Notes under the pieces: model-generated
The model's database searches: none
What the model saw: the letters and a program-made list of their open reading frames with translations, nothing else
What the model was told of the DNA's origin: nothing
Position numbers and translations under genes: made by a program
Part shown: in pieces, positions 1,517 to 21,231 of the stretch
Numbering within the stretch: position 1 is the first letter of the stretch
Layout of the letters: each line of letters opens with the position of its first letter
NCBI GenBank assembly: GCA_913046795.1
Contig: CAJWTC010000002.1
Coordinates: 1,994 to 65,993, forward strand
Length of the DNA: 64,000 bases
Reading direction: 5' to 3'
Origin: an uncultured Flammeovirgaceae bacterium
GTDB taxonomy: Bacteria; Bacteroidota; Bacteroidia; Cytophagales; MED-G16

Positions 1517-4500
1517 ATGTTTGGTTTTCTCAAGAAAATATTAGGATCTAAATCAGATAAGGATTTGAAAGAAATCTATCCTTTAGTTGATAAAATCAAC
1601 TCTGAATATGACAAGCTTAACACAATAAGTGATGAAGATTTAAGATCAAAGACAGAAGAATTCAAATTAAAAATTAAAAATTCATTAATAGAGACAGAGG
1701 AAGAAATTAATAATCTAAAAATTAATTATGAAAATAATAAAGGCTCATTGGATGAGAAAGAAGAAATATTAAATTCTATTGATAAAATAACAGAAAATCA
1801 AAATAAAATTATTGAAGATATATTAAATGAAATTTTACCTGAAGCATTTGCCGTAGTAAAAGAGACTGCTAGAAGGTTTTCAGAGAATGGTTCACTTGAG
1901 GTAGAGGCAACAGATTTCGACAAAGAAATTGCACAGAAGAAAGAAAACATTAAAATAAAAGGCTCTAAGGCGATATGGCTAAATAAATGGGAGGCAGCTG
2001 GTGTTTCAATTGAGTGGAATATGGTTCATTACGACGTCCAGCTAATTGGGGGTGTAGTCCTTCACCAGGGTAAAATATCAGAAATGGCAACAGGTGAAGG
2101 TAAGACATTGGTTGCAACCTTACCAGCATATCTCAATGCTTTATCTGGGAGAGGAGTTCATATTGTCACAGTGAATGACTACTTAGCAAAAAGAGATGCT
2201 GAGTGGAATGCTCCCATTTTTCAATTCCATGGACTTGAAGTTGACTGTATAGATAAACACGATTCTAATTCTAGTGAGAGAATTAGGGCATACAATGCTG
2301 ACATCACATACGGGACAAATAACGAATTTGGTTTTGACTACTTGAGAGATAATATGGTTAGAGAAAAATCAGAACTAGTTCAGCGCAAACATAATTTTGC
2401 AATGGTCGATGAAGTTGATTCTGTCCTCATAGATGAAGCAAGAACCCCTCTAATTATCTCTGGTCCTATACCCAAAGGAGATGTCCACGAGTTTTTTGAT
2501 CTAAAGCCCAGAATTCAAAAGCTTTTTGACCTGCAAAAGAAGATAGTAACAAATTATTTATCAGAAGCTAAAAAGTTAATAACTGAGGGAAAGGAAGAGG
2601 AAGGAGGATTATCATTATTTAGAGCATACAGAGGCTTACCTAAATACAAGCCTTTAATAAAATACCTTAGTGAAATCGGAACAAAGGCAATAATGCAGAA
2701 AACAGAGAATATTTATTTACAAGACAACTCTAAGTTAATGCCTGAGGCAGATAAACCTCTTTACTTCACAATAGAAGAAAAAAGCAATAGTATCCAATTA
2801 ACTGAAAAGGGAACCGATACCATTACAAGTTCAGGTGATGACAAAAACTTCTTTATAGTTCCTGATATTGGGGTGGAGATAGATAAAATAGAAAAATCGG
2901 ATAAACCTATAGAAGAAATTGCTAAAGAAAAAGAGAAGTTAATCCAGGATTTTAGTGTAAAGACTAAAAGAATACATAGCATAAACCAACTTCTTAAAGC
3001 TTATTCTCTTTTTGAGAAAGACCAAGAGTATGTTGTTATGGATTCAAAAGTAAAAATAGTTGATGAACAGACTGGTAGGATTATGGAGGGAAGAAGGTAC
3101 TCAGATGGTCTCCACCAGGCAATTGAAGCAAAGGAAAATGTTAAGATTGAGGATGCATCTCAAACTTATGCAACCATAACTCTCCAGAACTATTTCAGAA
3201 TGTACAACAAATTATCTGGTATGACTGGGACAGCCGAAACAGAAGCCGGAGAATTCTGGGAGATATATAATTTAGACTGTGTGGTTATACCAACAAATAG
3301 AGATATAGCAAGGTCTGACATGGAAGATAAAATATACAAGACCCTTAAAGCTAAATTTAGTGCTGTTATTGATGAGATAATTGAACTTAAAAATAATGGT
3401 AGACCAATACTTGTGGGAACTACATCTGTCGAGATTTCAGAACTTCTTGGAAGGATGTTAAATATGAAAAAAATTCAGCATCAAGTTTTAAATGCAAAAC
3501 AACATGCAAAAGAAGCAGATATTGTTGCCGAGGCTGGTAAACCCGGCACCGTGACAATAGCAACAAATATGGCAGGAAGAGGTACAGATATTAAACTTAC
3601 AAGTGAATCTAAAGAGAGTGGTGGCTTAGCTATTATTGGTACCGAAAGACACGAGTCTAGAAGAGTAGATAGACAATTACGTGGTAGATCAGGCAGGCAA
3701 GGAGATGTGGGTTCTTCTCAATTTTTTGTTTCATTAGAAGATAATTTAATGAGATTGTTTGGATCTGATAGGATGATTAAAGTAATGGATAGAATGAATA
3801 TGGATGAGGACGAAGTCATTCAGCATAGCATGATAACAAAATCTATTGAGAGAGCTCAGAAGAAGGTTGAAGAAAATAATTTTGCAATTAGGAAAAGGCT
3901 TCTTGAGTACGACAATGTAATGAACTCACAAAGAGAAGTTATATACAAGAAGAGAAGGAATGCCATAATTGGAGAGAGATTAGAAGTTGATATTTTAAAT
4001 ACTATTTATGACACTTGTGACGATATAGTCTTAACCTCAAAACAAAATGATAACTATAAAGATTTTAGGCTCAATGTATTAACTATTCTAGGTCTTGACT
4101 ACAGCAAATTAAGCGAGGAAGATTTCAGGCAGAAGCAACCAGAGGAGATAACAAAATCATTATTCGAAGCTGTAAATGATAATTATAATAGAAAAAACAA
4201 TAGTATTTCAGAGGCTGCATACCCTATCCTTAAAAAGATAAAAAAAGAAAGAGGTGGTGTGGTAAAAGATATTTTAATTCCATTTACAGACGGTAACAGG
4301 CAGATAGGTGTCTCTGTAAACCTTGAAGATTCATTGGAAAGCAAAGGTAAAAACATTATTAAAGAAATGCAGAAGACAGTTTGCCTCGGAATGATTGATT
4401 TAAATTGGAAAGAACATCTTAGAGAAATGGATGATCTGAAACAATCTGTACAAAGTGCAGTATATGAACAGAAAGACCCCCTAGTGATTTATAAATTTGA

Positions 4501-8277: not shown

Positions 8278-9236
8278 TCTTTAGCTCTTATTTTAAAGAA
8301 TATATAGATAGAACTCAAAGTACCAACAACTAAAAGACAAACAATTTGTGATGTGTGAAGAACAGTCGCAAAAAACAAACCACTTTCATAATCTAGATTA
8401 TAACTTAACAGTATACTTGCTACAAGAAAGTGGTAAGCCCCAATGCCTGCATTTACTGGAACAACCATACCTATTGAACCTGCAACTAAAACAGCAAGTC
8501 CTGCATAAACACCTAGACCTGAAGTCTGATCAAAGGAGAAAAAAATCAGATACCCCATAAGAAAATATGTCCCCCATAGAAGTACTGTAGATAATAAAAA
8601 CCTTTTGTCATCATACAAAAACTTAACCGACATGAAACCCTCCTTGAACTCATTGAATTTATCTTTTAAAAATTTTGATTTAGTTATTATATACCTAGAA
8701 AAGATTATTACTAGCGCTATACTGCTTATTGTAATAAAGATAGATCTACTACCTAAAGACGTATAATCAATTATGTACGTCTTAATAAAAAGCATGAAAT
8801 TGGTAAATTCAATTGCCAGAAAAAGGAAGATAAGAATCAACAAAGATATTAAGTCTATTATCCTCTCCGAGACCACTGAACCTAATGATTTTGAAAAATT
8901 AATTTGATTGGTTTTAGATATTAAGTAACATCTAACAACATCATTAAATCTAGGAATTAGTAAGGCAAAAAAATATGATATTATTATAACATTTGTTGTA
9001 ACGAATGTTGAAAATTTATTATTACCACCTACTTCCATCATGAGATTCCATCTGTAAGCTCTAATTACATGTTCGAAAATAGATATAAACATTGAGAGGT
9101 AGATCCAATAAAAATTCAGCTCATTTAATCTCAAGTAGAAGTCTGAGAAATCAATAGATCTAAAAACAAGAAAGAAGAGGACTCCTCCTAGAGAGAGTGA
9201 TAGCAACGAGTTTATTATGACTGATTTCTTGTTCAA
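8274..9236 (-). CDS. UPF0104 / lysylphosphatidylglycerol-synthase-TM-region-like flippase-like membrane protein
   Basis: 320 aa, about 8 TM segments. The conserved-looking RAYRW motif follows TM2. 4-nt overlap with the downstream rfaE2-like gene. Confidence 0.55.
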   Translation of the reverse strand: MNKKSVIINSLLSLSLGGVLFFLVFRSIDFSDFYLRLNELNFYWIYLSMFISIFEHVIRAYRWNLMMEVGGNNKFSTFVTTNVIIISYFFALLIPRFNDVVRCYLISKTNQINFSKSLGSVVSERIIDLISLLILIFLFLAIEFTNFMLFIKTYIIDYTSLGSRSIFITISSIALVIIFSRYIITKSKFLKDKFNEFKEGFMSVKFLYDDKRFLLSTVLLWGTYFLMGYLIFFSFDQTSGLGVYAGLAVLVAGSIGMVVPVNAGIGAYHFLVASILLSYNLDYESGLFFATVLHTSQIVCLLVVGTLSSIYIFFKIRAKE

Positions 9237-12922: not shown

Positions 12923-14119
12923 ATGAAAATTGCAGTAATTGGTTCTGGAGTTTGGGGTGCAAGCTGCGCATATCACCTTAATAGGGTAGGTGTAGATGTA
13001 GAATTATATGACATGTGGGGACCAGGGAATTCTAGATCAGGTTCTGGAGGTGCTTCAAGGATAATAAGGTTGGCTTACGGTGATGACAAAATATATACGC
13101 AGTTAACAAATAACTCATTTAGGTTTTGGGAGGACTTATCTAAAGATAGTGAAAGGAAGCTGTACGATGAATGTGGAATGTTATGGCTAGTTAGTCAGGA
13201 TGATAGTAGCTACATAAAAAAATCAAAAAAACACATCGAAAGTGTAGGTCAATCTATAGAGCAATTATCTAAGAAAGATGCTCAAAAAAAATATCCTATT
13301 ATAAATTTTGACGATATCAACGAGATATATTATGAGAAGAAAGCAGGAGCACTTATGGCGAGCAGATGCTGTAAAAATATTGTAAGGAAATTTAAAGAAG
13401 AAGGGGGTAAAGTTCTTTTAGGCGAAGTAAAAATTGATGAAAAAAACTTAGAAAATAAAAATTCAATATCCTTTAATGGAAAAAATATAGAGGCTGACAA
13501 ATACGTTATAGCATGTGGGCCATGGAATAGAAAACTATTACCCAAAATGTTAGGTGAAGTTACTTTCATATCAAGACAAGAAGTATATTATTTTGGGGTT
13601 CCAAACGATAGTGTAACAAAATACAACTCAGACTCTATGCCTTGCTGGTTAGATTTAAATTCAGACAACCCATCGTATTATGGTATTCCTTTCCATTTAA
13701 ATAAAGGTTTTAAGATATCTTATGACGAGAGGTCTACACCATTTGATCCAGATACATCAGATAGAATTCCGATTCCAGAACTTGTTAAAAGAACAAAAAA
13801 ATACCTCTATAATCGATTTCCTCACTTAAAGAATCATCCTATTTCTGAGACAAGGGTGTGTCAGTACGAAAATAGTTTTGATGGTAATTTTATTATTAAT
13901 TACCATGAAGAGAATGACAATGTGATTGTTCTTTCAGGAAGTTCAGGTCATGGTTTTAAATTAGGACCTGGTTTAGGAGAATTAGTAAAAGATATTCTTA
14001 TAAATGATAAAGATATTCCTAAAGAATTTGATATAGGAAGACTTGATAATGATAACTCTTCATCCCAATACTATAATGCACAGATCAAATACAATAAAAA
14101 GAAAAGGTTATTTAACTAA
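12923..14119 (+). CDS. FAD-dependent oxidoreductase (DAO family, monomeric sarcosine-oxidase-like)
   Basis: 398 aa. N-terminal dinucleotide fold MKIAVIGSGVWGASCAYHL. C-terminal ...LSGSSGHGFKLGPGLGE... is typical of DAO/MSOX-type flavoenzymes. Confidence 0.8.
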   Translation: MKIAVIGSGVWGASCAYHLNRVGVDVELYDMWGPGNSRSGSGGASRIIRLAYGDDKIYTQLTNNSFRFWEDLSKDSERKLYDECGMLWLVSQDDSSYIKKSKKHIESVGQSIEQLSKKDAQKKYPIINFDDINEIYYEKKAGALMASRCCKNIVRKFKEEGGKVLLGEVKIDEKNLENKNSISFNGKNIEADKYVIACGPWNRKLLPKMLGEVTFISRQEVYYFGVPNDSVTKYNSDSMPCWLDLNSDNPSYYGIPFHLNKGFKISYDERSTPFDPDTSDRIPIPELVKRTKKYLYNRFPHLKNHPISETRVCQYENSFDGNFIINYHEENDNVIVLSGSSGHGFKLGPGLGELVKDILINDKDIPKEFDIGRLDNDNSSSQYYNAQIKYNKKKRLFN

Positions 14120-14960
14120 TAGTAGAATTTATCTCTTATTACTTTGGACTTTTTTAAGCTCATGTCAAGATAATTACCAAAATTGTTTGGATTTAGAATA
14201 CGGAACTGAATACATTAGAGTAACTGGTGTAAGCGAAGGAGATAATAACTACTTTAAATACTTCTGTAAAACATCAGACGTCTTTGGCATTAAAATTTAT
14301 GCCACAGAAAACGTAGAGAATGAGAAAGTATTTCACGCAGCCTCGATATTAGCTGAATACTTGGATAATGACGAAGATGGAACTGCTGATAATCAAAGAA
14401 TAGTAGATAAATTAATTGATAAGAAAGCTTGGTTATTAATGGCTATGAATGAAGAAGAATCAAGTGCTGCAGTAAGGTTCCCTATTAGAAATCATACATT
14501 TTTAGAATTATATGATGAAGAGGTGTCAATAATTAATGGGTCTCCCAGGTTTGATGCTAGTCTTGAAGAAATATTACATCTCATATCACAATATGGTTAT
14601 GCTGAAGTGTACCCTAATAAATTTGGAGAAAATAAAAACTCTAAAATAGCAAAAGCTATGGATGAGGCTAGAGGAGGATATTTTAAAAATGTTCCAAATT
14701 CATATCCATCTAGTGCCTGGTTTACTTATGAGGATAAAACCTGTAACTACTCCTGTCAAATTACTGAGTATACCTATTGGGCGTTGACTTCTATACTAGG
14801 GGCACAAGAGTTTCCTGGAAGACTAGAAGAAATACAACATGAATGGAAGTATAATACAAGAGAAAAAGTTAAAAATAATGACTCTCAAGTATATGGGTTA
14901 TTAACTGATCCAGAATTTAAATTTCCAACAAACCTACCAGACGGAAAATATAGAGAATAG
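14076..14960 (+). CDS. hypothetical lipoprotein
   Basis: Start at 14076 gives MHRSNTIKRKGYLTNSRIYLLLLWTFLSSC (lipobox). No family recognised. Overlaps the oxidoreductase 3' end by 44 nt. Confidence 0.5.
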   Translation: MHRSNTIKRKGYLTNSRIYLLLLWTFLSSCQDNYQNCLDLEYGTEYIRVTGVSEGDNNYFKYFCKTSDVFGIKIYATENVENEKVFHAASILAEYLDNDEDGTADNQRIVDKLIDKKAWLLMAMNEEESSAAVRFPIRNHTFLELYDEEVSIINGSPRFDASLEEILHLISQYGYAEVYPNKFGENKNSKIAKAMDEARGGYFKNVPNSYPSSAWFTYEDKTCNYSCQITEYTYWALTSILGAQEFPGRLEEIQHEWKYNTREKVKNNDSQVYGLLTDPEFKFPTNLPDGKYRE

Positions 14961-16130
14961 TTATTTCTCGAAATGATTAGATAATCTATAATGTAAATTT
15001 TCTCTTATATTCAACCAAAACAAATTGTAGTCAGCTGAATGGTAACTATCCATCTTAAATAATTTCATCCAAGGGATATCTATTTCTTTGAGCTGAAGGG
15101 ATCCCTTCTCTGATTTGACAGAAATCTTATTAGGTTTTTTTAATTTAAAATTTCCGACAGGCAATTTCATAACTTGATACTTAAACATTTGGATTATGTT
15201 GGGCATTAGAATTCCTTTATGAGAAAAAAGATCCGTTTCGTCTTTGCTCCTATCAAATGTGATAGGATTAGATGCTACAATATTTTGGTAATATTCATTG
15301 TCATATGGATTTATATTATCACCAAATGTATTCCAAGATAAAAAACATTTTATTTGATCTGGCTCATCACATGGTGGTAGACCTGAGAAATTGTCAGCAA
15401 CAGGAATCCCTACTAGGTATGCGATAAGAAGTTTCTCTTTAAGATCTTTGTTAGGTAATATAATATCTTTTATCAATTTAGAGGCATGCATACTTCCCTG
15501 GCTATGAGCAGCAATTATAAAATGTTTTCCCTTATTTTCTAGCTCTAAATATTTCATGAAAGCTCTCTTAACATCTGAATAAGCAACCTCATATGATTCC
15601 TTAGAGTATAATCTCAGCTTATTATTTTCATATGTAAAAAGCTCTAAATTTTTGTTAGAAAATATTTCATCTTGATAAATTTTAAAATCTTTACTTAGGA
15701 TTGGGTCAAGAGCTATATCAGTTAATATATTGCTAGAATTATGATAAACCAAACCATCGTAAAAAAGCTGTCTGTAAAGAGGAGCGTAAACATTTGTTAT
15801 ACCTGAAAAGATACTTGCTTGATTACCTAATGCAAGGTCTTTTACCCTCCTTAAGTGTTCTGGATCTTCTATATTAGCATTCCAAAAGTTTCCATTATAT
15901 CCAGAATTATAGACCGTGGGATAGATGTAAAAGACATCAACTTTTGATTTAAAATCTTTTAATGTGTCAACATATTTTACTGGTAATGGGATTTCATCTT
16001 TAGGTGATGCAATCCAGTTTTTCATGTACTTATAATCCGGAGCTTTAGGAAAACCAGTATTAGAAACTAGATATTTAGATGAGTTACAAGAAGACAGAAC
16101 AACTAATAGAATAAAATATAGAGATCTCAT
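14961..16130 (-). CDS. DUF3089-like alpha/beta hydrolase (secreted or lipoprotein)
   Basis: 389 aa. Signal MRSLYFILLVVLSSC. Nucleophile elbow in FIIAAHSQGSMH (xHSQG). Confidence 0.6.
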   Translation of the reverse strand: MRSLYFILLVVLSSCNSSKYLVSNTGFPKAPDYKYMKNWIASPKDEIPLPVKYVDTLKDFKSKVDVFYIYPTVYNSGYNGNFWNANIEDPEHLRRVKDLALGNQASIFSGITNVYAPLYRQLFYDGLVYHNSSNILTDIALDPILSKDFKIYQDEIFSNKNLELFTYENNKLRLYSKESYEVAYSDVKRAFMKYLELENKGKHFIIAAHSQGSMHASKLIKDIILPNKDLKEKLLIAYLVGIPVADNFSGLPPCDEPDQIKCFLSWNTFGDNINPYDNEYYQNIVASNPITFDRSKDETDLFSHKGILMPNIIQMFKYQVMKLPVGNFKLKKPNKISVKSEKGSLQLKEIDIPWMKLFKMDSYHSADYNLFWLNIRENLHYRLSNHFEK

Positions 16131-16185
16131 TATTTACAAGTAAAATAATACATATATATTTATTACGGTAAACTATAAACAAAAA

Positions 16186-17094
16186 ATGAAATTAGACATC
16201 AAAAATGAGACAAATCAACTTTTTTCTGTCATATTAGGTGTTGCTAATGATTTTGGATTTCAACCAACTCCAGAGAATTGTATTGACCCAAAGACAAAAC
16301 ATTTTGTGTTAAATAACTCTTTTCCATCAGAAAGAGATTGCATAAAAGAAGTTGAATCATTTAATGATGTCCTACTTAAATATGAGGTAGAGGTAATTAG
16401 ACCAAAAAATATAGAAGGATTAAATCAAATCTTCACTAGAGATGTCGGATTTGTTATAAAAAATAAGTTTTTTAAATCAAATACTATTAGTGAACGGAAA
16501 CAGGAGAAAGATGGAATAAATAACTGCCTAAAAAAAATTAATAAATCAGATATAGTAGAAGTGCCCGAAGACATAAGAGTTGAGGGCGGTGATGTTTTAG
16601 TGGACAATGATTTTATATTCATAGGTACTAGTAATGTGAAGGATACAAAACTTAAAGTATCTAGAACAAATGAAAAATCTGTAGACTTCATAAAAGAGGT
16701 TTTTCCAAATAAATCTGTACTAGGATTAGAGTTATATAAAAATGACAATAACCCTTTTGATAATATACTTCATTTGGATTGCACCATGCAACCCATTGGC
16801 AATGGAAAAATTATAATTTTTAAAAATGGTATTAGAAAGGATTCAGATAAAGAGTTAATAAAGGAAATATATGGAGCAGAAAATTGTATAGAAATATCAA
16901 GGGAGGAGATGTATGAAGGATACTCAAATATATTTTCAATCAACAGTAATACTATTGTTTCAGACAAAACTTTTGTTAGGTTAAATAATAAACTATCTGA
17001 TCTAGGTTTTAAAGTAGAAGAGGTTTATTATCGAGAAGTATCAAAGTTTGGTGGATTGTTTAGATGCTCCACCTTACCACTATATAGAAAATAA
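16186..17094 (+). CDS. amidinotransferase-fold guanidino-group-modifying enzyme (DDAH/arginine-deiminase-like)
   Basis: 302 aa. RVEGGDVL, HLDC, and C-terminal catalytic-Cys context FGGLFRCSTLPL. Confidence 0.75.
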   Translation: MKLDIKNETNQLFSVILGVANDFGFQPTPENCIDPKTKHFVLNNSFPSERDCIKEVESFNDVLLKYEVEVIRPKNIEGLNQIFTRDVGFVIKNKFFKSNTISERKQEKDGINNCLKKINKSDIVEVPEDIRVEGGDVLVDNDFIFIGTSNVKDTKLKVSRTNEKSVDFIKEVFPNKSVLGLELYKNDNNPFDNILHLDCTMQPIGNGKIIIFKNGIRKDSDKELIKEIYGAENCIEISREEMYEGYSNIFSINSNTIVSDKTFVRLNNKLSDLGFKVEEVYYREVSKFGGLFRCSTLPLYRK

Positions 17095-17143
17095 AAAATT
17101 AATTGTAAATATATCTTAAAATGTATTTATTAGCTATTTTAGT

Positions 17144-17163
17144 GGATACATATTAGGATACAT
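17144..17163. repeat. left copy of a 20-bp imperfect direct repeat, GGATACATATTAGGATACAT
   Basis: Ends immediately before the integrase-like ATG (17164). Matches 18288-18307 at 17 of 20 positions. Each copy contains two GGATACA(T) half-sites. Confidence 0.7.
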
Positions 17164-18300
17164 ATGCAAATTCAACTTTGGCGGAGAAAAAATAAAGAAG
17201 AAACTAAACATAACCTATACATAAGATATAGAGTTAATCAGAATAGAGCAAAGGTCGAGACTTTAAAACTCTGGGAGTGGGTTAATCCAACTGAAGAAGT
17301 TCAGATTAGGCACAATAAAAGTGTAAAGAAAGCTTATGAAGAAATTTTAAGAAGAACTAAAGATGACATAGAAAACAATAGGATAAACATCAATATTGAA
17401 AACAAAAAAAAATCAACATTTAAAGATGATTTTATAAAATATTCAAAAATTGATAACAAAGAAGCTATTTACAAATTCATTAAAAGCCAATACGATGATA
17501 TAGACAGCAGAAATACATCTGAAATTAATAGAGATTATTTATTAAGTATTAAGGAAAAAATAGAAACTAATATATCAGAAAAGAAAATAAAAAATGCAAC
17601 AGCATCTAAATATTGGAGTGATTTAAAAAAAGGATTAAGGGAGTTAAACGAACAAAAGCTATGCGACTACCCTAACCTTGGCTCAATAAAAAATTCTAAA
17701 GAAAAGAGACACCAGGTAGTATTATCAAAGAATGAATTAAATAAGATTAACAACATAAAATCAAAAAAATTAATTGAAATAAAAAATGCTTTTCTTTTCG
17801 CATCAATTTGTGGAATTAAAATTAGAGAACTTTCAAAAATGAGATGGTCAGATATTAAAAAAGAAAGGGGGGGGGACTACGCACTGAACTATAAAAAAAA
17901 ACAGATACTCGTGAGCAAAGAAATAAGAAAAATAATGGGAAAAAGAAAGTCAGAAAAAAAACACATTTTTAATTTACCAACTAATAAATCAACAACATCT
18001 AAAATATTTAATAAAATGATAAAGGAATCTGGTTTAAATAAAAAAATTAGGATGGGTGATGCAATTCATACTTTTGCTCATAATTTGTATAAAGAAACAA
18101 AAAATATCTACCTGATCTCTTCTTACCTAGAACACAAGTCAATAGAGATTACAAAATCAAAATATAATTATATGGAAGAGGACACATATTTAATAGAGAA
18201 TAATCTACTAAGAGATAATAGTTTAACAAGACATAAATTTAAGAGAGGAAAGTTATTTAAAAAGGGAAGACTACTGTCCTATAAACAGGATACAATATAG
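17164..18300 (+). CDS. tyrosine recombinase/integrase-like protein (Bacteroidetes type), catalytic residues apparently degenerate
   Basis: 378 aa. N-terminal Arm-type pattern (HNLYIRYRVNQNR...W). SAM-like FKDDFIKYSK. C-terminal CGIKIRELSKMRWSDI, GDAIHTFAHNLY and YLEHKSIEITKSKY align by eye to TGLRISEL..LRWSDI, HDLRHTFAT and LGHxSIxTTxxY. Confidence 0.7.
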   Translation: MQIQLWRRKNKEETKHNLYIRYRVNQNRAKVETLKLWEWVNPTEEVQIRHNKSVKKAYEEILRRTKDDIENNRININIENKKKSTFKDDFIKYSKIDNKEAIYKFIKSQYDDIDSRNTSEINRDYLLSIKEKIETNISEKKIKNATASKYWSDLKKGLRELNEQKLCDYPNLGSIKNSKEKRHQVVLSKNELNKINNIKSKKLIEIKNAFLFASICGIKIRELSKMRWSDIKKERGGDYALNYKKKQILVSKEIRKIMGKRKSEKKHIFNLPTNKSTTSKIFNKMIKESGLNKKIRMGDAIHTFAHNLYKETKNIYLISSYLEHKSIEITKSKYNYMEEDTYLIENNLLRDNSLTRHKFKRGKLFKKGRLLSYKQDTI

Positions 18301-18307
18301 GATACAT
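18288..18307. repeat. right copy of the 20-bp imperfect direct repeat, GGATACAATATAGGATACAT
   Basis: Spans the integrase-like stop codon (TAG, 18298-18300). 17 of 20 positions identical to 17144-17163. Confidence 0.7.
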
Positions 18308-18347: not shown

Positions 18348-19295
18348 ATGATACAGAAAATAAAAAAACAAATTACATCAAGTTTAATTATGGTAAGGCC
18401 CAGGCACTTTAACTTTAATCTAGAAACTGCCAAAAACAATCACTTTCAAAAAGAAGAAAAAATATTATCAGACGAAAAAATATTAAGGAAAGCTATAAAA
18501 GAATTCGACAACTTAGTTGACAAACTATTAAAAAATAAAATAAATGTCACCGTCATTGATGACAGAGAAGATGTAAAAACAACTGACAGTGTCTTTCCTA
18601 ATAACTGGATTAGTTTTCATCAAAATGGTTTAGTATTCATCTATCCTATGTTCTCAGAAAATAGAAGAAAGGAAAAAAGACTAGATATATTAGAAAAACT
18701 TAATGAGGATTATGAAATAAAAAAAGTTATTGACTTTTCTTCATACGAGGACAAATCTGTTTTTCTAGAAGGGACAGGAAGTATGATACTTGACAGACAA
18801 CACAAAATATGTTACGCATCAATCTCAGAAAGAACAAATAAAATAGCCCTTAAAGATTTCTGTGAAAAAGCTTCTTATGAGCCAATAATTTTTAAATCTT
18901 ATCAAAAAGTAGACGGTAATAAAAAACTTATTTACCACACAAATGTAATGATGTGTGTTGCAGAAGAATATGTTTTAATTTGTCTAGATTCAGTTCATAG
19001 TAAGGATGAGAAAAAAAATATCATAACTTCTATCCATAAAACAAAAAAAGAAATTATTGAAATTAGCGAAAAACAATGTAGCTCCTTCGCAGGAAATATG
19101 TTGCAGGTCTCTAATATAAATAATGATAAATTCTTAGTTATGAGTAACTCTGCACATGACTCATTACAGGAAAAACAAAAAATTAGATTACTAAAATACA
19201 ACAAGATAATTCATAGCAATTTAACATTAATTGAAAAATTAGGAGGTGGAAGCGCAAGGTGTATGATTGCTGAAAATTTTCTTCAAAAAAAATAA
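18348..19295 (+). CDS. amidinotransferase-fold hydrolase, citrulline-utilisation (CtlX)/arginine-deiminase-related type
   Basis: 315 aa. FPNNWISFH, EGTGSMILD, and C-terminal GGGSARCMIAE catalytic-Cys motif. Confidence 0.7.
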   Translation: MIQKIKKQITSSLIMVRPRHFNFNLETAKNNHFQKEEKILSDEKILRKAIKEFDNLVDKLLKNKINVTVIDDREDVKTTDSVFPNNWISFHQNGLVFIYPMFSENRRKEKRLDILEKLNEDYEIKKVIDFSSYEDKSVFLEGTGSMILDRQHKICYASISERTNKIALKDFCEKASYEPIIFKSYQKVDGNKKLIYHTNVMMCVAEEYVLICLDSVHSKDEKKNIITSIHKTKKEIIEISEKQCSSFAGNMLQVSNINNDKFLVMSNSAHDSLQEKQKIRLLKYNKIIHSNLTLIEKLGGGSARCMIAENFLQKK

Positions 19296-19326: not shown

Positions 19327-19710
19327 ATGAAAAAAGCAATACTAACCAAAAAAGCACCATTACCAATTGGACCATATAATCAAGCAATAAACTATGATAA
19401 CATGTTATTTGTTTCTGGTCAAATACCTCTAGATCCAGTAAGCAATGAACTAGTTGAAAGCGGAATTAAAGATGAAACCAACCAGGTTATGAAAAACATT
19501 GAAGCAATTCTTAAAGAAGCTGGTATGGATTTTGATGATATTGTTAAAACATCAATTTTTTTAAAGGATATGGATAATTTCAAAATAGTTAACGAAACAT
19601 ATGGAAATTATTTTGAAGGTATCATCCCTCCTGCACGAGAGACAGTTCAGGTATCTAAACTCCCCCTTGATGTGAATGTAGAAATTTCATGCATTGCAAT
19701 TAGAAAATAG
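19327..19710 (+). CDS. ridA: RidA/YjgF-family reactive-intermediate deaminase
   Basis: 127 aa. PIGPYNQAI...LFVSGQIPLDP...ARETVQVSKLPLDVNVEI matches the YjgF/RidA pattern. Confidence 0.85.
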   Translation: MKKAILTKKAPLPIGPYNQAINYDNMLFVSGQIPLDPVSNELVESGIKDETNQVMKNIEAILKEAGMDFDDIVKTSIFLKDMDNFKIVNETYGNYFEGIIPPARETVQVSKLPLDVNVEISCIAIRK

Positions 19711-21231
19711 ATGTCTAATAATATTAGGTTAAGGTTTGCACCAAGTCCAACAGGGCCTCTACATATTGGAGGACTTAGGACGGCTCTTTATAATTTTTTA
19801 ATTTCAAAAAGTCTAGGTGGAAAATTTATAATTAGAATTGAAGACACGGACAGAAACAGGTTTGACCAACGAGCTGAAAAACATATTCTTGACTCCCTTG
19901 ATTGGTGTGGAATCATTCCTGATGAAGGGCCATTAAATGGAGGGGATTATGGACCATATAGACAGTCTGAAAGAAAGGAAAACTACCGACAAAGAATACA
20001 AGAATTAATTGAAAGTGGAGATGCATATTATGCGTTCGACAAAACTGATGAATTAGACGACCAAAGAAAGGAAAGTGAAAAAAAGGGAGAAACTTTCATA
20101 TATAACTGGGAGAATAGAAAAAATTTTAAAAATTCATTTACCCTAAGTGAAGAAGAAATAAAAAATTTAATTTCAAAAGGCGACTATGTTGTTAGGTACA
20201 AAACTTATAATGAAGGAGAACAAAATGAAATTGTAGTTTCGGATGAGATAAGAGGTGATATTAAGGTGAATTTAAAATTATTAGATGATAAAAAAATATT
20301 TAAAAAAGATGGTATGCCAACATACCATTTTGCAAATGTTGTTGATGATTATGAAATGAAAATTTCACATGTTGTTAGGGGTGAGGAGTGGCTACCATCT
20401 CTTGCTCTACATTTCCTTCTTTACAAATCATTTAATTGGAATCCTCCAAAATTTGCTCATTTACCTTTAATACTAAAACCAACTGGAAAAGGAAAACTAA
20501 GTAAAAGAGATGGTGAGAAATATGGTATTCCCGTATACCCAATAACCTGGGAGGATTCATCAAAAAAATTTGAAGGGTTTAGAGAGGTTGGGTTTGAAAA
20601 TAGTTCTTTAATAAATTTTATAAGCTTAATAGGATGGAACCCAGGAGATGAAAAAGAAATTTTTTCATTAGATGAATTAATCAAAGCATTCGATATAAAG
20701 AGAATAATAAAAGGTGGTGCAAAATATGATTATGACAAAGCAATATGGTTTAATCAGGAACACCTTAAAAAAATTACATCAGATGACATATATAAGGATT
20801 TAGAAAAGGAGATAGATAAAAATGAATTAGTCAATGAGAAAAAAATAACTACATTAATATCACTAGCGAAAGAAAGGGTGAATTTTAAGAAAGAGATATT
20901 TAACGAGTGTCTGAATATAATATCCTACGCAGAAGGTGATATATTAGGAAATATGAAAAAAATTAATTTTACAGACCATATATTAAAAACTATAAAAGGT
21001 TTTATAAAGAGTTTAAAAGAATCTAAAAATATAAATTCTGTAGAATTAAAAGAAAACTATTTTAATCAACTAAAAGAGAATAATATTAAAATTGGGGATG
21101 GAATGAAATCACTTAGAGTGATGATGACAGGTAAAATTTCAGGGCCTGATCTATTTACAATATTAGAAATAATTAAAAGAGATATTTTAATAATCAGATT
21201 AGAAAAAAGCATAAAAATAATAAATGATTAA
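19711..21231 (+). CDS. gltX: glutamate--tRNA ligase
   Basis: 506 aa. RFAPSPTGPLHIGGLRTALYN (HIGH region) and KLSKRDG (KMSKS). Confidence 0.95.
   Translation: MSNNIRLRFAPSPTGPLHIGGLRTALYNFLISKSLGGKFIIRIEDTDRNRFDQRAEKHILDSLDWCGIIPDEGPLNGGDYGPYRQSERKENYRQRIQELIESGDAYYAFDKTDELDDQRKESEKKGETFIYNWENRKNFKNSFTLSEEEIKNLISKGDYVVRYKTYNEGEQNEIVVSDEIRGDIKVNLKLLDDKKIFKKDGMPTYHFANVVDDYEMKISHVVRGEEWLPSLALHFLLYKSFNWNPPKFAHLPLILKPTGKGKLSKRDGEKYGIPVYPITWEDSSKKFEGFREVGFENSSLINFISLIGWNPGDEKEIFSLDELIKAFDIKRIIKGGAKYDYDKAIWFNQEHLKKITSDDIYKDLEKEIDKNELVNEKKITTLISLAKERVNFKKEIFNECLNIISYAEGDILGNMKKINFTDHILKTIKGFIKSLKESKNINSVELKENYFNQLKENNIKIGDGMKSLRVMMTGKISGPDLFTILEIIKRDILIIRLEKSIKIIND

What the first reader, a model, noticed from the sequence alone, without database searches (positions are those of the whole stretch)
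17144..18307. Integrase-like ORF precisely bracketed by 20-bp imperfect direct repeats
GGATACATATTAGGATACAT (17144-17163) ends one base before the ATG. GGATACAATATAGGATACAT (18288-18307) spans the stop codon. The two copies match at 17 of 20 positions, and each consists of two GGATACA(T) half-sites about 13 bp apart. The ORF is the only gene between them, and it sits between two functionally related amidinotransferase-fold genes. This looks like attL/attR remnants or a duplicated target of a one-gene integrative element. Alternatively, the repeats could be a duplicated operator for the flanking genes.
Basis: seen in the sequence. Interest (0 to 1): 0.55.

Follow-up and report, generated by a model that had tools for sequence, protein, structure and literature searches.

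The report
Domesticated integrase flanked by conserved binding sites
The repeats are real, but this is not a mobile element: it is an integrase-derived gene that has lost its catalytic residues, has been fixed for a long time in one group of marine bacteria, and has kept two perfectly conserved repeat sites at its ends, most likely as its own DNA-binding sites.

Summary
GGATACA-N5-GGATACA occurs at 17144-17162, next to the ATG, and at 18288-18306, across the stop. These are the only two copies in 64 kb (0.12 expected).

In all 21 species-level loci of an uncultured marine Cytophagales clade, the same ORF sits between the same two amidinotransferase-fold genes and carries both repeats. No empty site and no circle junction was found. 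dS equals that of the neighbouring ctlX, and dN/dS is 0.11-0.28.

The 14 half-site bases are invariant (site 2) or nearly so (site 1). Meanwhile the spacers, the flanks and even the stop-codon position change.

The protein is full-length homologous to Bacteroidota arm-binding integrases, but no member keeps the full catalytic set. The second Arg is I or V in 45 of 46 members, the first Arg is K in 30, and the HxxR His is lost in 45. The N-terminal arm-binding domain is the best conserved part.

Best explanation (inferred, not shown): a domesticated, non-catalytic integrase binds relic arm-type att sites at both ends of its gene, and so regulates itself and the downstream ctlX genes. I rate this a new variant of a known kind, of moderate interest.

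The parts
16186..17094 (+). Upstream neighbour: an amidinotransferase-fold gene resembling arginine deiminase, arginine dihydrolase or DDAH (302 aa).
   Evidence: Pfam ADI 3.3e-7. Weak NCBIfam hits to Arg_dihydro and DDAH. Occupies the same position in all clade loci.
17103..17169 (+). Predicted RNA hairpin. An upstream GTATTT-containing segment pairs, with G.U pairs, to both half-sites of site 1 and to the start codon. Its status is unexplained.
   Evidence: The fold of 17095-17200 gives -21.2 kcal/mol, z = -3.9. Similar hairpins occur in about 11 of 18 species and are absent from the rest.
17135..17142 (+). TATTTTAG, an imperfect match to the Bacteroidota -7 promoter box (TAnnTTTG), 1 nt upstream of site 1.
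   Evidence: A TAtTTTT[GA]-type box lies 1-13 nt upstream of site 1 in most loci. The promoter role is inferred from the published Bacteroidota consensus, recalled from my own knowledge.
17144..17162 (+). Site 1: GGATACA-TATTA-GGATACA, ending 1 nt before the ATG. It is a candidate binding site (relic arm-type or attL site, acting as an operator).
   Evidence: It matches at 13-14 of 14 specified positions in 21 of 21 loci and always ends 1-4 nt before the start codon.
17164..18300 (+). Integrase-derived ORF (378 aa). The domains are an N-terminal arm-binding-like domain (1-75), a helical core-binding domain (about 86-165), a catalytic-fold domain (about 189-345) with degenerate active-site residues (K219, G298, I301, H324, Y334), and a conserved disordered tail (346-378).
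   Evidence: Purifying selection is shown.
18288..18306 (+). Site 2: GGATACA-ATATA-GGATACA, spanning the TAG stop. It is the second candidate binding site (relic arm-type or attR site).
   Evidence: It matches at 14 of 14 specified positions in 21 of 21 loci, although the stop codon sits at six different offsets.
18348..19295 (+). Downstream neighbour ctlX (citrulline utilization hydrolase, 315 aa). It is probably co-transcribed with the integrase-derived gene.
   Evidence: NCBIfam CtlX 407 bits, above the cut-off. No -7-like box lies in the 21-74 nt between site 2 and ctlX in most loci.
19327..21231 (+). Context: ridA and gltX follow on the same strand with gaps of 31 and 0 nt, continuing the same gene string.
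   Evidence: The synteny is shown.

Best explanation
An ancestral integrative element that encoded a Bacteroidota-type, arm-binding tyrosine integrase inserted between an arginine-deiminase-like gene and ctlX in the ancestor of a clade of uncultured, low-GC marine Cytophagales. NCBI labels these genomes Marinoscillum or Flammeovirgaceae. The element was reduced to the integrase gene and its two ends and then became fixed. The protein lost recombination chemistry but remained under purifying selection as a DNA-binding protein. The two AGGATACA-N4-AGGATACA arrays at the ends of its gene are its conserved cognate sites, with the architecture of arm-type sites: tandem direct repeats one helical turn apart. 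Binding at site 1, which overlaps the transcription start or 5' leader, would autoregulate the gene. Binding at site 2, and probably bridging of the two sites as integrases do in a synapse, would control transcription into ctlX-ridA. What is shown: fixation, vertical descent, purifying selection on the gene, base-level selection on both sites independent of coding, degeneration of the catalytic residues, and full-length homology to arm-binding integrases. What is inferred: that this protein binds these sites, and that the result is transcriptional control rather than recombination.
For: 1. Fixed synteny. ADI-like | int | ctlX | ridA | gltX is found in 21 species-level loci and many metagenome contigs, at integrase identity of 99 to 37%.
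2. Site conservation. All 14 specified bases are invariant in 21 of 21 loci for site 2, and 13-14 of 14 match for site 1. Flanking positions show only 42-80% majority frequency, and the spacers differ between the two copies and between close strains.
3. Independence from coding. Site 2 is conserved even though the stop codon lies at offsets -5, -3, -2, +7, +10 or +28. Inside the ORF, the stretch under site 2 is the only well-sampled, alignable one with excess synonymous conservation; the other high-scoring windows are gap-rich and thinly sampled.
4. Vertical descent under selection. dN/dS is 0.11-0.28 against 0.13-0.22 for ctlX, with matching dS, and all 25 ORFs are intact.
5. Catalytic residues in 46 members. 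The first Arg is K in 30, R in 15 and S in 1. The HxxR His is kept in 1. The second Arg is I in 32, V in 13 and R in 1. The third His is H in 32, D in 12 and Y in 2. No member has the full set, different lineages lost different residues, and 8 of 8 nearest outgroup integrases are canonical.
6. Homology and fold. hhalign gives 100% probability, E = 4e-42, over the full length to integrases with Arm-DNA-bind_5, Phage_int_SAM_5 and Phage_integrase domains. The AF2 and Foldseek results match XerA, XerH, Tn1549 Int and full-length lambda Int.
7. The N-terminal arm-binding-like domain is the best conserved part: 0.63 pairwise identity against 0.43-0.45 elsewhere.
8. The nearest catalytically intact relative (P0069) sits in a small phage- or satellite-like element, which fits a mobile ancestry.
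9. Precedent. TnsF is a catalytically inactive tyrosine-recombinase derivative used as a sequence-specific DNA binder (PMC10293859).
Against: There is no direct evidence that the protein binds these sites. The catalytic Tyr is invariant (46 of 46), and K or R is kept at the first Arg position in 45 of 46 members, so residual or partner-assisted chemistry is not formally excluded. The protein has no evident ligand-sensing domain, so it is unclear what signal a regulator would respond to. The 12-bp direct-repeat architecture also fits other DNA-binding proteins, such as OmpR/PhoB-type regulators. An upstream segment can pair with site 1 as RNA in many species, which hints at a role at the RNA level. 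Whole genomes of the clade could not be scanned for further sites.
Confidence: 0.55

Rival explanations
1. The sites are operators for a different host DNA-binding protein, for example an OmpR/PhoB-type response regulator that recognises 7-bp direct repeats. That protein would control the arginine/citrulline genes, and the integrase-derived gene would have an unrelated function.
For: Direct heptamer repeats with an AT-rich spacer resemble pho-box-type operators (my own knowledge). The sites sit at promoter-proximal and intergenic positions in a metabolic gene string.
Against: The sites occur only where the integrase-derived gene occurs, exactly at its two ends, in 21 of 21 loci. They are absent from outgroup ctlX loci. 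No further copy exists in the 64-kb window or in 313 kb of clade loci. The period is 12 bp, not the 10-11 bp typical of OmpR/PhoB boxes.
Confidence: 0.12
2. The element is still an active site-specific recombination switch. The protein, alone or with a partner recombinase, excises the 1.14-kb segment between the direct repeats and fuses the ADI-like gene and ctlX into one operon, as in the nifD, sigK and comK excision switches.
For: The gene is flanked by direct repeats in the same orientation. The nucleophile Tyr is invariant, and K or R is kept at the first Arg position in 45 of 46 members. Excisable switches derived from mobile elements are well known (PMC8987985).
Against: The second catalytic Arg and the HxxR His are missing in 45 of 46 members, and the only member that keeps them lacks the first Arg. 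The spacers of the two copies differ, so only 7-8 bp units are identical. Excision would delete the recombinase gene itself, yet the gene is fixed in all genomes. No empty-site or circle junction was found, although the test had low power: only 6 occupied contigs matched the control pattern. The element does not interrupt any ORF.
Confidence: 0.08
3. The conserved repeats act at the RNA level. The GGAUACA pairs in the 5' leader and at the 3' end of the mRNA would form, or be bound in, structures that control translation or stability of the integrase-derived gene and ctlX.
For: Both sites lie on the sense strand. Site 1 abuts the start codon. The upstream GUAUUUU segments pair with GGAUAC using G.U pairs, which work only in RNA. 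Fold z-scores are -3.9, -4.1, -3.2 and -3.0 in four species, and the mean is about -1.3 across 18.
Against: The hairpin is absent in 6-7 species, including close relatives of species that have it (L001 against the window and L012). The upstream motif also fits the -7 promoter box, and in that case it would not be transcribed. Site 2 shows no significant fold (z = -1.1). No Rfam family matches.
Confidence: 0.08
4. This is a recently integrated, currently mobile one-gene integrative element with attL and attR.
For: An integrase-family ORF is exactly bracketed by direct repeats.
Against: Synteny is fixed over deep divergence. dS equals that of the neighbouring gene. There is no compositional break. 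No empty sites were found, and the catalytic residues are degenerate.
Confidence: 0.02

Closest known systems
Bacteroidota-type arm-binding tyrosine integrases (Pfam Arm-DNA-bind_5 + Phage_int_SAM_5 + Phage_integrase; examples from my own knowledge are IntDOT of CTnDOT and IntN1 of NBU1)
   Same: Homology runs over the full length (hhalign probability 100%, E = 4e-42). The three-domain layout and the fold are the same. The tandem direct repeats next to the gene have the architecture of arm-type sites.
   Different: The catalytic residues are degenerate in every member. The gene is chromosomally fixed and vertically inherited. It carries an extra conserved C-terminal tail of about 40 aa. The Pfam arm and SAM models are no longer matched directly.
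TnsF of Tn6022-like Tn7 transposons, a catalytically inactive tyrosine-recombinase derivative used as a DNA target selector (PMC10293859)
   Same: It is a tyrosine-recombinase fold that lost catalysis and was kept as a sequence-specific DNA-binding module. Active relatives still exist.
   Different: TnsF works inside a transposon, has N-terminal zinc fingers and tandem CB domains, and targets comM. The protein here belongs to the host, is single-copy, sits in a metabolic gene string, and has its presumed sites at its own gene ends. Homology to TnsF was not tested.
Excisable regulatory elements (Anabaena nifD element with XisA, Bacillus skin element, Listeria comK prophage; reviewed in PMC8987985)
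   Same: A recombinase gene lies between direct repeats inside a functional gene cluster, and the element is immobilised and vertically inherited.
   Different: Those elements keep an active recombinase and interrupt a coding sequence that excision restores. Here the active site is degenerate and no ORF is interrupted.
Xer/dif (a domesticated tyrosine recombinase with a conserved chromosomal site)
   Same: It is a host-retained tyrosine recombinase together with a strictly conserved cognate DNA site.
   Different: Xer is catalytically active. Its site is an inverted-repeat core site at the terminus, not tandem direct repeats at the ends of the gene.
Lambda Int and Tn916 Int arm-type sites (my own knowledge)
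   Same: They are short tandem direct repeats, about one helical turn apart, bound by the N-terminal three-stranded-sheet domain. Integrases bridge arm sites and other sites.
   Different: No core-type inverted repeat or crossover region is conserved here, so binding would not lead to strand exchange.
Streptococcus mitis-group prophages (Javan362 and Javan330 type)
   Same: They carry tandem AGGATACA-N4-AGGATACA arrays 16-17 nt beyond the 3' end of their integrase gene (measured in L118 and L103). In two contigs a second array lies elsewhere on the same ~40-kb contig, in one of them 188 nt from the contig start. This is a working example of the same site architecture, and even the same octamer, in mobile elements.
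   Different: The integrase belongs to a different lineage (Arm-DNA-bind_4 + SAM_3, catalytically canonical, hhalign probability only 1.3% against this family). The shared octamer is probably coincidental, because I searched for that exact motif.

Membership tests
Tyrosine recombinase superfamily | Phage_integrase catalytic-domain fold | tested here: met
   Pfam PF00589 at 7e-12, found in 19 of 19 members. Foldseek matches XerA, XerH, Tn1549 Int, lambda Int and Cre at probability 1.00.
Tyrosine recombinase superfamily | Catalytic residues R-K-H-x-x-R-H/W-Y | tested here: not met
   The first Arg is K in 30, R in 15 and S in 1. The HxxR His is kept in 1 of 46. The second Arg is I or V in 45 of 46. 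The third His is H in 32, D in 12 and Y in 2. The beta-hairpin Lys column is a gap. Only the Tyr is kept (46 of 46). The 8 outgroup integrases are all canonical.
Bacteroidota arm-binding integrases (Arm-DNA-bind_5 / SAM_5 type) | N-terminal arm-binding domain and SAM-like core-binding domain homologous to the family | tested here: met
   hhalign of A1 against A5 covers residues 1-338 at probability 100%. The members of A5 that were scanned (P0068, P0070, P0072) hit all three Pfam models. AF2 shows a three-strand sheet plus helix, though at low confidence. The Pfam arm and SAM models do not hit the family directly.
Integrative mobile element with attL/attR | Presence/absence polymorphism (empty sites) among related genomes | tested here: not met
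   All 21 species-level loci are occupied. The empty-junction pattern gave 0 hits. All 6 control hits were occupied chromosomal junctions (low power).
Integrative mobile element with attL/attR | Horizontal-transfer signature (divergence discordant with neighbours, compositional break) | tested here: not met
   The dS of the integrase-derived gene equals that of ctlX in 12 pairs. GC is 0.23-0.29 across the gene, against 0.26-0.30 in the two flanking genes.
Integrative mobile element with attL/attR | Identical crossover segment shared by the two repeats, flanked by inverted core-type sites | tested here: not met
   Only the 7-8-bp half-sites are identical. The spacers differ between the two copies in most genomes. 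No conserved inverted repeat was found.
Excisable regulatory elements (nifD, skin or comK type) | The element interrupts a coding sequence that excision restores | tested here: not met
   Both flanking ORFs are complete and align over their full length with homologs.
Inactivated tyrosine-recombinase-derived DNA binders (TnsF-like) | Tyrosine-recombinase fold, loss of catalytic residues, purifying selection | tested here: met
Inactivated tyrosine-recombinase-derived DNA binders (TnsF-like) | Demonstrated sequence-specific DNA binding without cleavage | not testable with these tools
   This needs EMSA, footprinting or ChIP.
OmpR/PhoB-type direct-repeat operator (rival) | The same box upstream of several regulon members | tested here: inconclusive
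   There are no further copies in the 64-kb window or in 313 kb of clade loci, but whole genomes could not be scanned.

The most novel reading that the evidence does not exclude
A tyrosine integrase has been converted into a host transcription or architecture factor. The catalytically dead protein synapses the relic att sites at the two ends of its own gene, forming a 1.1-kb loop that gates transcription through an arginine/citrulline catabolic operon. That would be a recombinase-derived class of bacterial regulator that keeps the geometry of an excisive synapse without strand exchange.
Probability: 0.35. Interest if true: 0.7.

Novelty: new variant of a known kind. Interest (0 to 1): 0.55.

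Why it matters
Known prokaryotic exaptations of tyrosine recombinases keep catalysis, as in Xer/dif, invertases and excision switches. The one documented inactive derivative that I found, TnsF, serves a transposon. This case would be a host-fixed, catalytically degenerate integrase that has kept both of its cognate sites invariant across deep divergence, inside a metabolic gene string of abundant, uncultured, streamlined ocean bacteria.

If the binding and looping model holds, three things follow. First, mobile-element integrases can be recycled into regulators together with their att sites. Second, it gives a clean natural system, one protein and two 19-bp sites, for studying integrase arm-site recognition without recombination. 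Third, it is a warning for annotation: an 'integrase' flanked by direct repeats is not necessarily a mobile element.

Tried and rejected
1. Empty-site and circle-junction search in JGI metagenome contigs. The pattern specific for an excised chromosome gave 0 hits. The control pattern gave only 6 contigs, all occupied. This agrees with fixation, but the test has low power.
2. An 'empty' arrangement in outgroups. One Bacteroidales MAG (L031) has the ADI-like gene 56 bp from ctlX, with no GGATACA site in between. It is too distant to count as a true pre-insertion site.
3. Search for a displaced regulator upstream of ctlX in outgroup genomes. The neighbours are heterogeneous (ornithine aminotransferase, ADI, unrelated genes), so nothing could be concluded.
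4. Search for a core-type site or other embedded element inside the ORF using synonymous-site conservation. Among well-sampled windows only the stretch under site 2 stands out; the other top windows are gap-rich.
5. Close relatives in phages. tblastn against GenBank phages found only distant catalytic-domain hits. The IMG/VR scan with the family alignment found one relative at 23% identity.
6. Motif scan of IMG/VR. Most of the 106 hits are unrelated: coding tandem repeats and chance matches. One Streptococcus prophage family carries the same octamer array next to its integrase, but that integrase belongs to a different lineage. I treat it as an analogy and not as ancestry.
7. Rfam gave nothing in the region.
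8. The consensus sigma-70 promoter and terminator scanner was not used, because Bacteroidota promoters differ from that consensus.
9. Literature searches found no description of this locus or family.
Full report
**Observation**

GGATACATATTAGGATACAT lies at 17144-17163, directly abutting the ATG at 17164. GGATACAATATAGGATACAT lies at 18288-18307, and the TAG stop (18298-18300) falls inside it. They match at 17 of 20 positions. Each consists of two GGATACA heptamers exactly 12 bp apart. With up to two mismatches allowed, the pattern has only these two matches in the 64-kb window, against 0.12 expected, and 0 of 100 shuffles reached two. The single heptamer is not enriched.

The ORF between them (17164-18300, 378 aa) hits Pfam Phage_integrase. 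The neighbours both have the amidinotransferase fold. Upstream is an ADI/DDAH-like gene. Downstream is CtlX, which scores above the curated NCBIfam cut-off.

**Distribution**

A word-indexed search of 5.8 billion proteins found 52 relatives. The full-length ones are 364-399 aa, the others are fragments; all come from metagenome or environmental-genome sources and none from a named isolate, and identity runs from 99% down to 26%, or to 37% for the weakest clear member. Context look-ups for members at 75, 50, 44 and 42% identity all showed the same order: DUF3089(-) | ADI-like | integrase | ctlX | ridA | gltX | alaDH-like | folE(-).

I then scanned one genome per species (GTDB) using the downstream gene ctlX as the probe, so that occupied and empty loci would both be returned. 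This gave 64 loci. Nineteen of them, plus one cut at a contig end, are MAGs or single-cell genomes labelled Marinoscillum, Flammeovirgaceae, Cytophagales or just Bacteroidota. Every one has the integrase-like ORF between the same two genes. None of the 44 more distant loci has it.

**Conservation of the repeats**

The alignments were anchored on the sites and covered 21 loci. In site 2 all 14 specified bases are identical in 21 of 21 loci. In site 1 the match is 13-14 of 14. The only variable positions are the last base of one or other heptamer: the first half-site in six loci and the second in one (L015). An A precedes each heptamer in 80-100% of loci, so the repeat unit is AGGATACA. Neighbouring positions show only 42-80% majority frequency. 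The surrounding intergenic DNA cannot be aligned.

The 5-nt spacers differ between the two copies in the same genome. They also differ between strains whose proteins are 94% identical: the window has TATTA and ATATA, and L077 has TTTAA and CCATA.

Site 1 always ends 1-4 nt before the start codon, which is ATG or TTG. Site 2 keeps its sequence although the stop codon lies at six different offsets relative to it: -5, -3, -2, +7, +10 and +28. A scan of synonymous-codon identity along the ORF puts the stretch under site 2 among the highest-scoring windows. The other top windows are gap-rich and thinly sampled, with the best of them on 174 pairs, so I do not read them as embedded elements. Selection therefore acts on the nucleotide sequence of both sites and not on the encoded peptide. 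No further copy with one mismatch or fewer exists in the window or in 313 kb of clade loci. The one exception is a third degenerate unit directly upstream of site 2 in L017.

**The gene is a host gene under selection**

All 25 ORFs examined are intact (374-392 aa). Across 12 pairs with measurable divergence, dN/dS is 0.11-0.28 for the integrase-like gene and 0.13-0.22 for ctlX, and dS is similar in the two genes. GC across the gene (0.23-0.29) dips slightly below that of the two flanking genes (0.26-0.30), with no sharp break. This pattern indicates vertical co-divergence and not recent transfer.

**The protein**

A profile of the family finds only XerA in the PDB sequences. The AlphaFold model has a mean pLDDT of 77.6. 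It shows an N-terminal three-stranded sheet plus helix (low confidence), a helical core-binding domain, the catalytic fold and a disordered tail. It matches XerA, XerH, Tn1549 Int, full-length lambda Int and Cre.

An exhaustive profile search of 1.84 billion representatives shows that the family is a small, isolated branch. It comprises three 50%-identity clusters plus fragments, and scores then fall from 514 to 133 bits. The branch sits within a very large set of integrases of about 360 aa (12,548 hits).

Three of the nearest full-length hits (P0068, P0070, P0072) carry Arm-DNA-bind_5, Phage_int_SAM_5 and Phage_integrase; the two closest, P0066 and P0069, hit only Phage_integrase. Profile-profile alignment with a set of these hits covers residues 1-338 at 100% probability, E = 4e-42. 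The nearest catalytically intact relative, P0069, lies in a small phage- or satellite-like element with an HTH_17 gene, an AAA_25/primase-like gene and a capsid gene.

**Active site**

I mapped the catalytic positions in two ways: from the HMMER alignment to XerA, and from an alignment with eight canonical outgroup integrases. The 46 full-length members show the following.

- First Arg: K in 30, R in 15, S in 1.
- His of HxxR: kept in 1.
- Second Arg: I in 32, V in 13, R in 1.
- Third His: H in 32, D in 12, Y in 2.
- Beta-hairpin Lys column: a gap.
- Tyr: kept in 46 of 46. It lies one residue later than in most outgroups but at the same position as in the two nearest relatives.

In the window protein these positions are K219, G298, I301, H324 and Y334. 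No member has the full set. The deepest branch (P0049, L028 and L029) keeps HxxR but has Ser at the first Arg position, while all the others lost HxxR. Different lineages lost different residues. That is the expected pattern if catalysis had become dispensable after fixation.

The essential role of the second Arg in tyrosine recombinases is established knowledge (Cre R292, lambda Int R311, XerD R247), which I recall rather than tested here. By contrast, the N-terminal arm-binding-like domain is the best conserved part of the protein. Its pairwise identity is 0.63 against 0.43-0.45 elsewhere, and it holds 26 of the 60 invariant columns. A C-terminal extension of about 40 aa carries an invariant LFKKGxLLSY-type motif and is absent from outgroups.

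**Interpretation**

The simplest history is as follows. An integrative element with an arm-binding integrase entered the spacer of an ADI-like/ctlX pair. That gene pair is adjacent without any integrase in a distant Bacteroidales MAG, L031. The element was reduced to the integrase gene and its ends and was then fixed.

What selection now maintains is a non-catalytic protein plus two arrays of tandem direct octamers one helical turn apart. That is the architecture of arm-type sites bound by integrase N-terminal domains. I therefore propose that the protein binds both arrays.

Site 1 lies 1-13 nt downstream of a TAtTTTT[GA] box that resembles the Bacteroidota -7 promoter element. The consensus is from my own knowledge. 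Binding there would autoregulate the gene. The 21-74 nt between site 2 and ctlX usually contain no such box, so ctlX is probably transcribed through site 2. Binding or bridging at the two sites could therefore gate expression of ctlX and ridA. These steps are inferred. Nothing here shows binding.

**Rivals**

1. Another host factor binds the sites (0.12). This is disfavoured by the strict co-occurrence of the sites with the ends of this gene and by the lack of other copies, but whole genomes were not scanned.
2. Residual or partner-assisted excision acts as a switch (0.08). This is disfavoured by the missing Arg and His residues, the non-identical spacers, the self-deleting geometry and the absence of junctions (low power).
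3. The repeats function at the RNA level (0.08). In the window, an upstream segment pairs with both half-sites and the start codon (-21.2 kcal/mol, z = -3.9). Comparable hairpins, which use G.U pairs and lineage-specific flank bases, occur in about 11 of 18 species but are absent from others. The same GTATTTT motif could simply be the promoter box. I leave this unexplained.
4. A currently mobile element (0.02). This is refuted as described above.

**Comparison with what is known**

Reviews of the recruitment of mobile elements by prokaryotes list Xer/dif and excisable switches for tyrosine recombinases, and all of those are catalytically active (PMC8987985). TnsF is a precedent for an inactivated tyrosine-recombinase derivative used as a sequence-specific DNA binder, but it works within a transposon (PMC10293859). 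I found no description of this family or locus.

A scan of IMG/VR for the octamer array turned up Streptococcus mitis-group prophages (Javan362 type). They carry AGGATACA-acaa-AGGATACA plus an inverted copy 16-17 nt beyond their integrase gene. In two contigs a second tandem array lies elsewhere on the same ~40-kb contig, in one of them 188 nt from the contig start. That integrase belongs to another lineage (Arm-DNA-bind_4; hhalign probability 1.3%). I take this as an illustration of how such arrays serve real integrases and not as evidence of ancestry.

**Verdict**

The mobile-element reading is wrong for the present state, though probably right as history. The most likely present function is site-specific DNA binding by a domesticated, catalytically degenerate integrase at relic att sites flanking its own gene. 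I rate it a new variant of a known kind, with interest 0.55.

Noticed in passing
window 17103-17169 (and the equivalent regions of L012, L013, L017, L021, L024, L029): A GTATTT(T)-containing segment upstream of site 1 can pair as RNA, through G.U pairs, with the GGAUAC half-sites and in the window with the start codon. The z-scores reach -3 to -4 in four species, but the hairpin is absent in 6-7 others. The motif also fits the Bacteroidota -7 promoter box. In the window only 6 of 54 genes have GTATTT within 80 nt upstream.
   Followed up: partly
L118 736-755 and 771-1853; L103 72-91 and 108-1190; L084+L129 and L099+L120 (the same contigs): Streptococcus mitis-group prophages (best match Javan362, 91.6% identity) carry AGGATACA-acaa-AGGATACA plus an inverted TGTATCCT 9 nt away, 16-17 nt beyond the integrase stop. 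In two contigs (L084+L129, L099+L120) a second tandem array (AGGATACA-acga/ataa-AGGATACA) lies elsewhere on the same ~40-kb contig; in L099 it is 188 nt from the contig start. The octamer and the 12-bp period are the same as in the window, but the integrase lineage is different (Arm-DNA-bind_4).
   Followed up: partly
L017 5915-5945: In one species, site 2 is preceded in register by a third, degenerate unit (AGATACA-taata-GGATACA-taata-GGATACA), giving three tandem 12-bp units.
   Followed up: no
L076 424-457; L075 about 3680-3910 and 8778-8797: The nearest catalytically intact relatives also have short repeats near their integrase genes. L076 has three tandem 11-bp AAAGAGTAACA units about 260 bp upstream of P0066. 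L075 has three CGTCACA copies upstream of P0069 and a GTACACA-N5-GTACACA pair with a 12-bp period. These may be arm-type sites.
   Followed up: no
L031 5003-6924: A distant Bacteroidales MAG has the ADI-like gene only 56 bp upstream of ctlX, with no integrase and no GGATACA site. The two-gene pairing therefore exists without the insert.
   Followed up: partly
L007/L008 and L009/L010, 1648-5027, compared with window 14961-16185: Some clade members carry two extra genes that the window, L001 and L004 lack: a DUF5001 gene between DUF3089 and the ADI-like gene, and a 322-aa ORF just beyond DUF3089. The neighbourhood is therefore not frozen, yet the integrase module and its sites are.
   Followed up: no
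P0025 and P0003 (gene calls from public sources): Some automatic gene calls extend the N-terminus through site 1, for example 'MSKIIKDTIKDTL-LKIQLW', where KDTIKDTL is site 1 translated. These extensions look like annotation artefacts, because in the window an in-frame TAG lies just upstream.
   Followed up: partly
window 12923-14119 and 14043-14960: The sarcosine-oxidase-like (DAO) ORF and the next ORF (305 aa, no Pfam hit, conserved in the clade at 281-294 aa) overlap by 77 nt as listed. The true start of the second ORF is probably further downstream.
   Followed up: no
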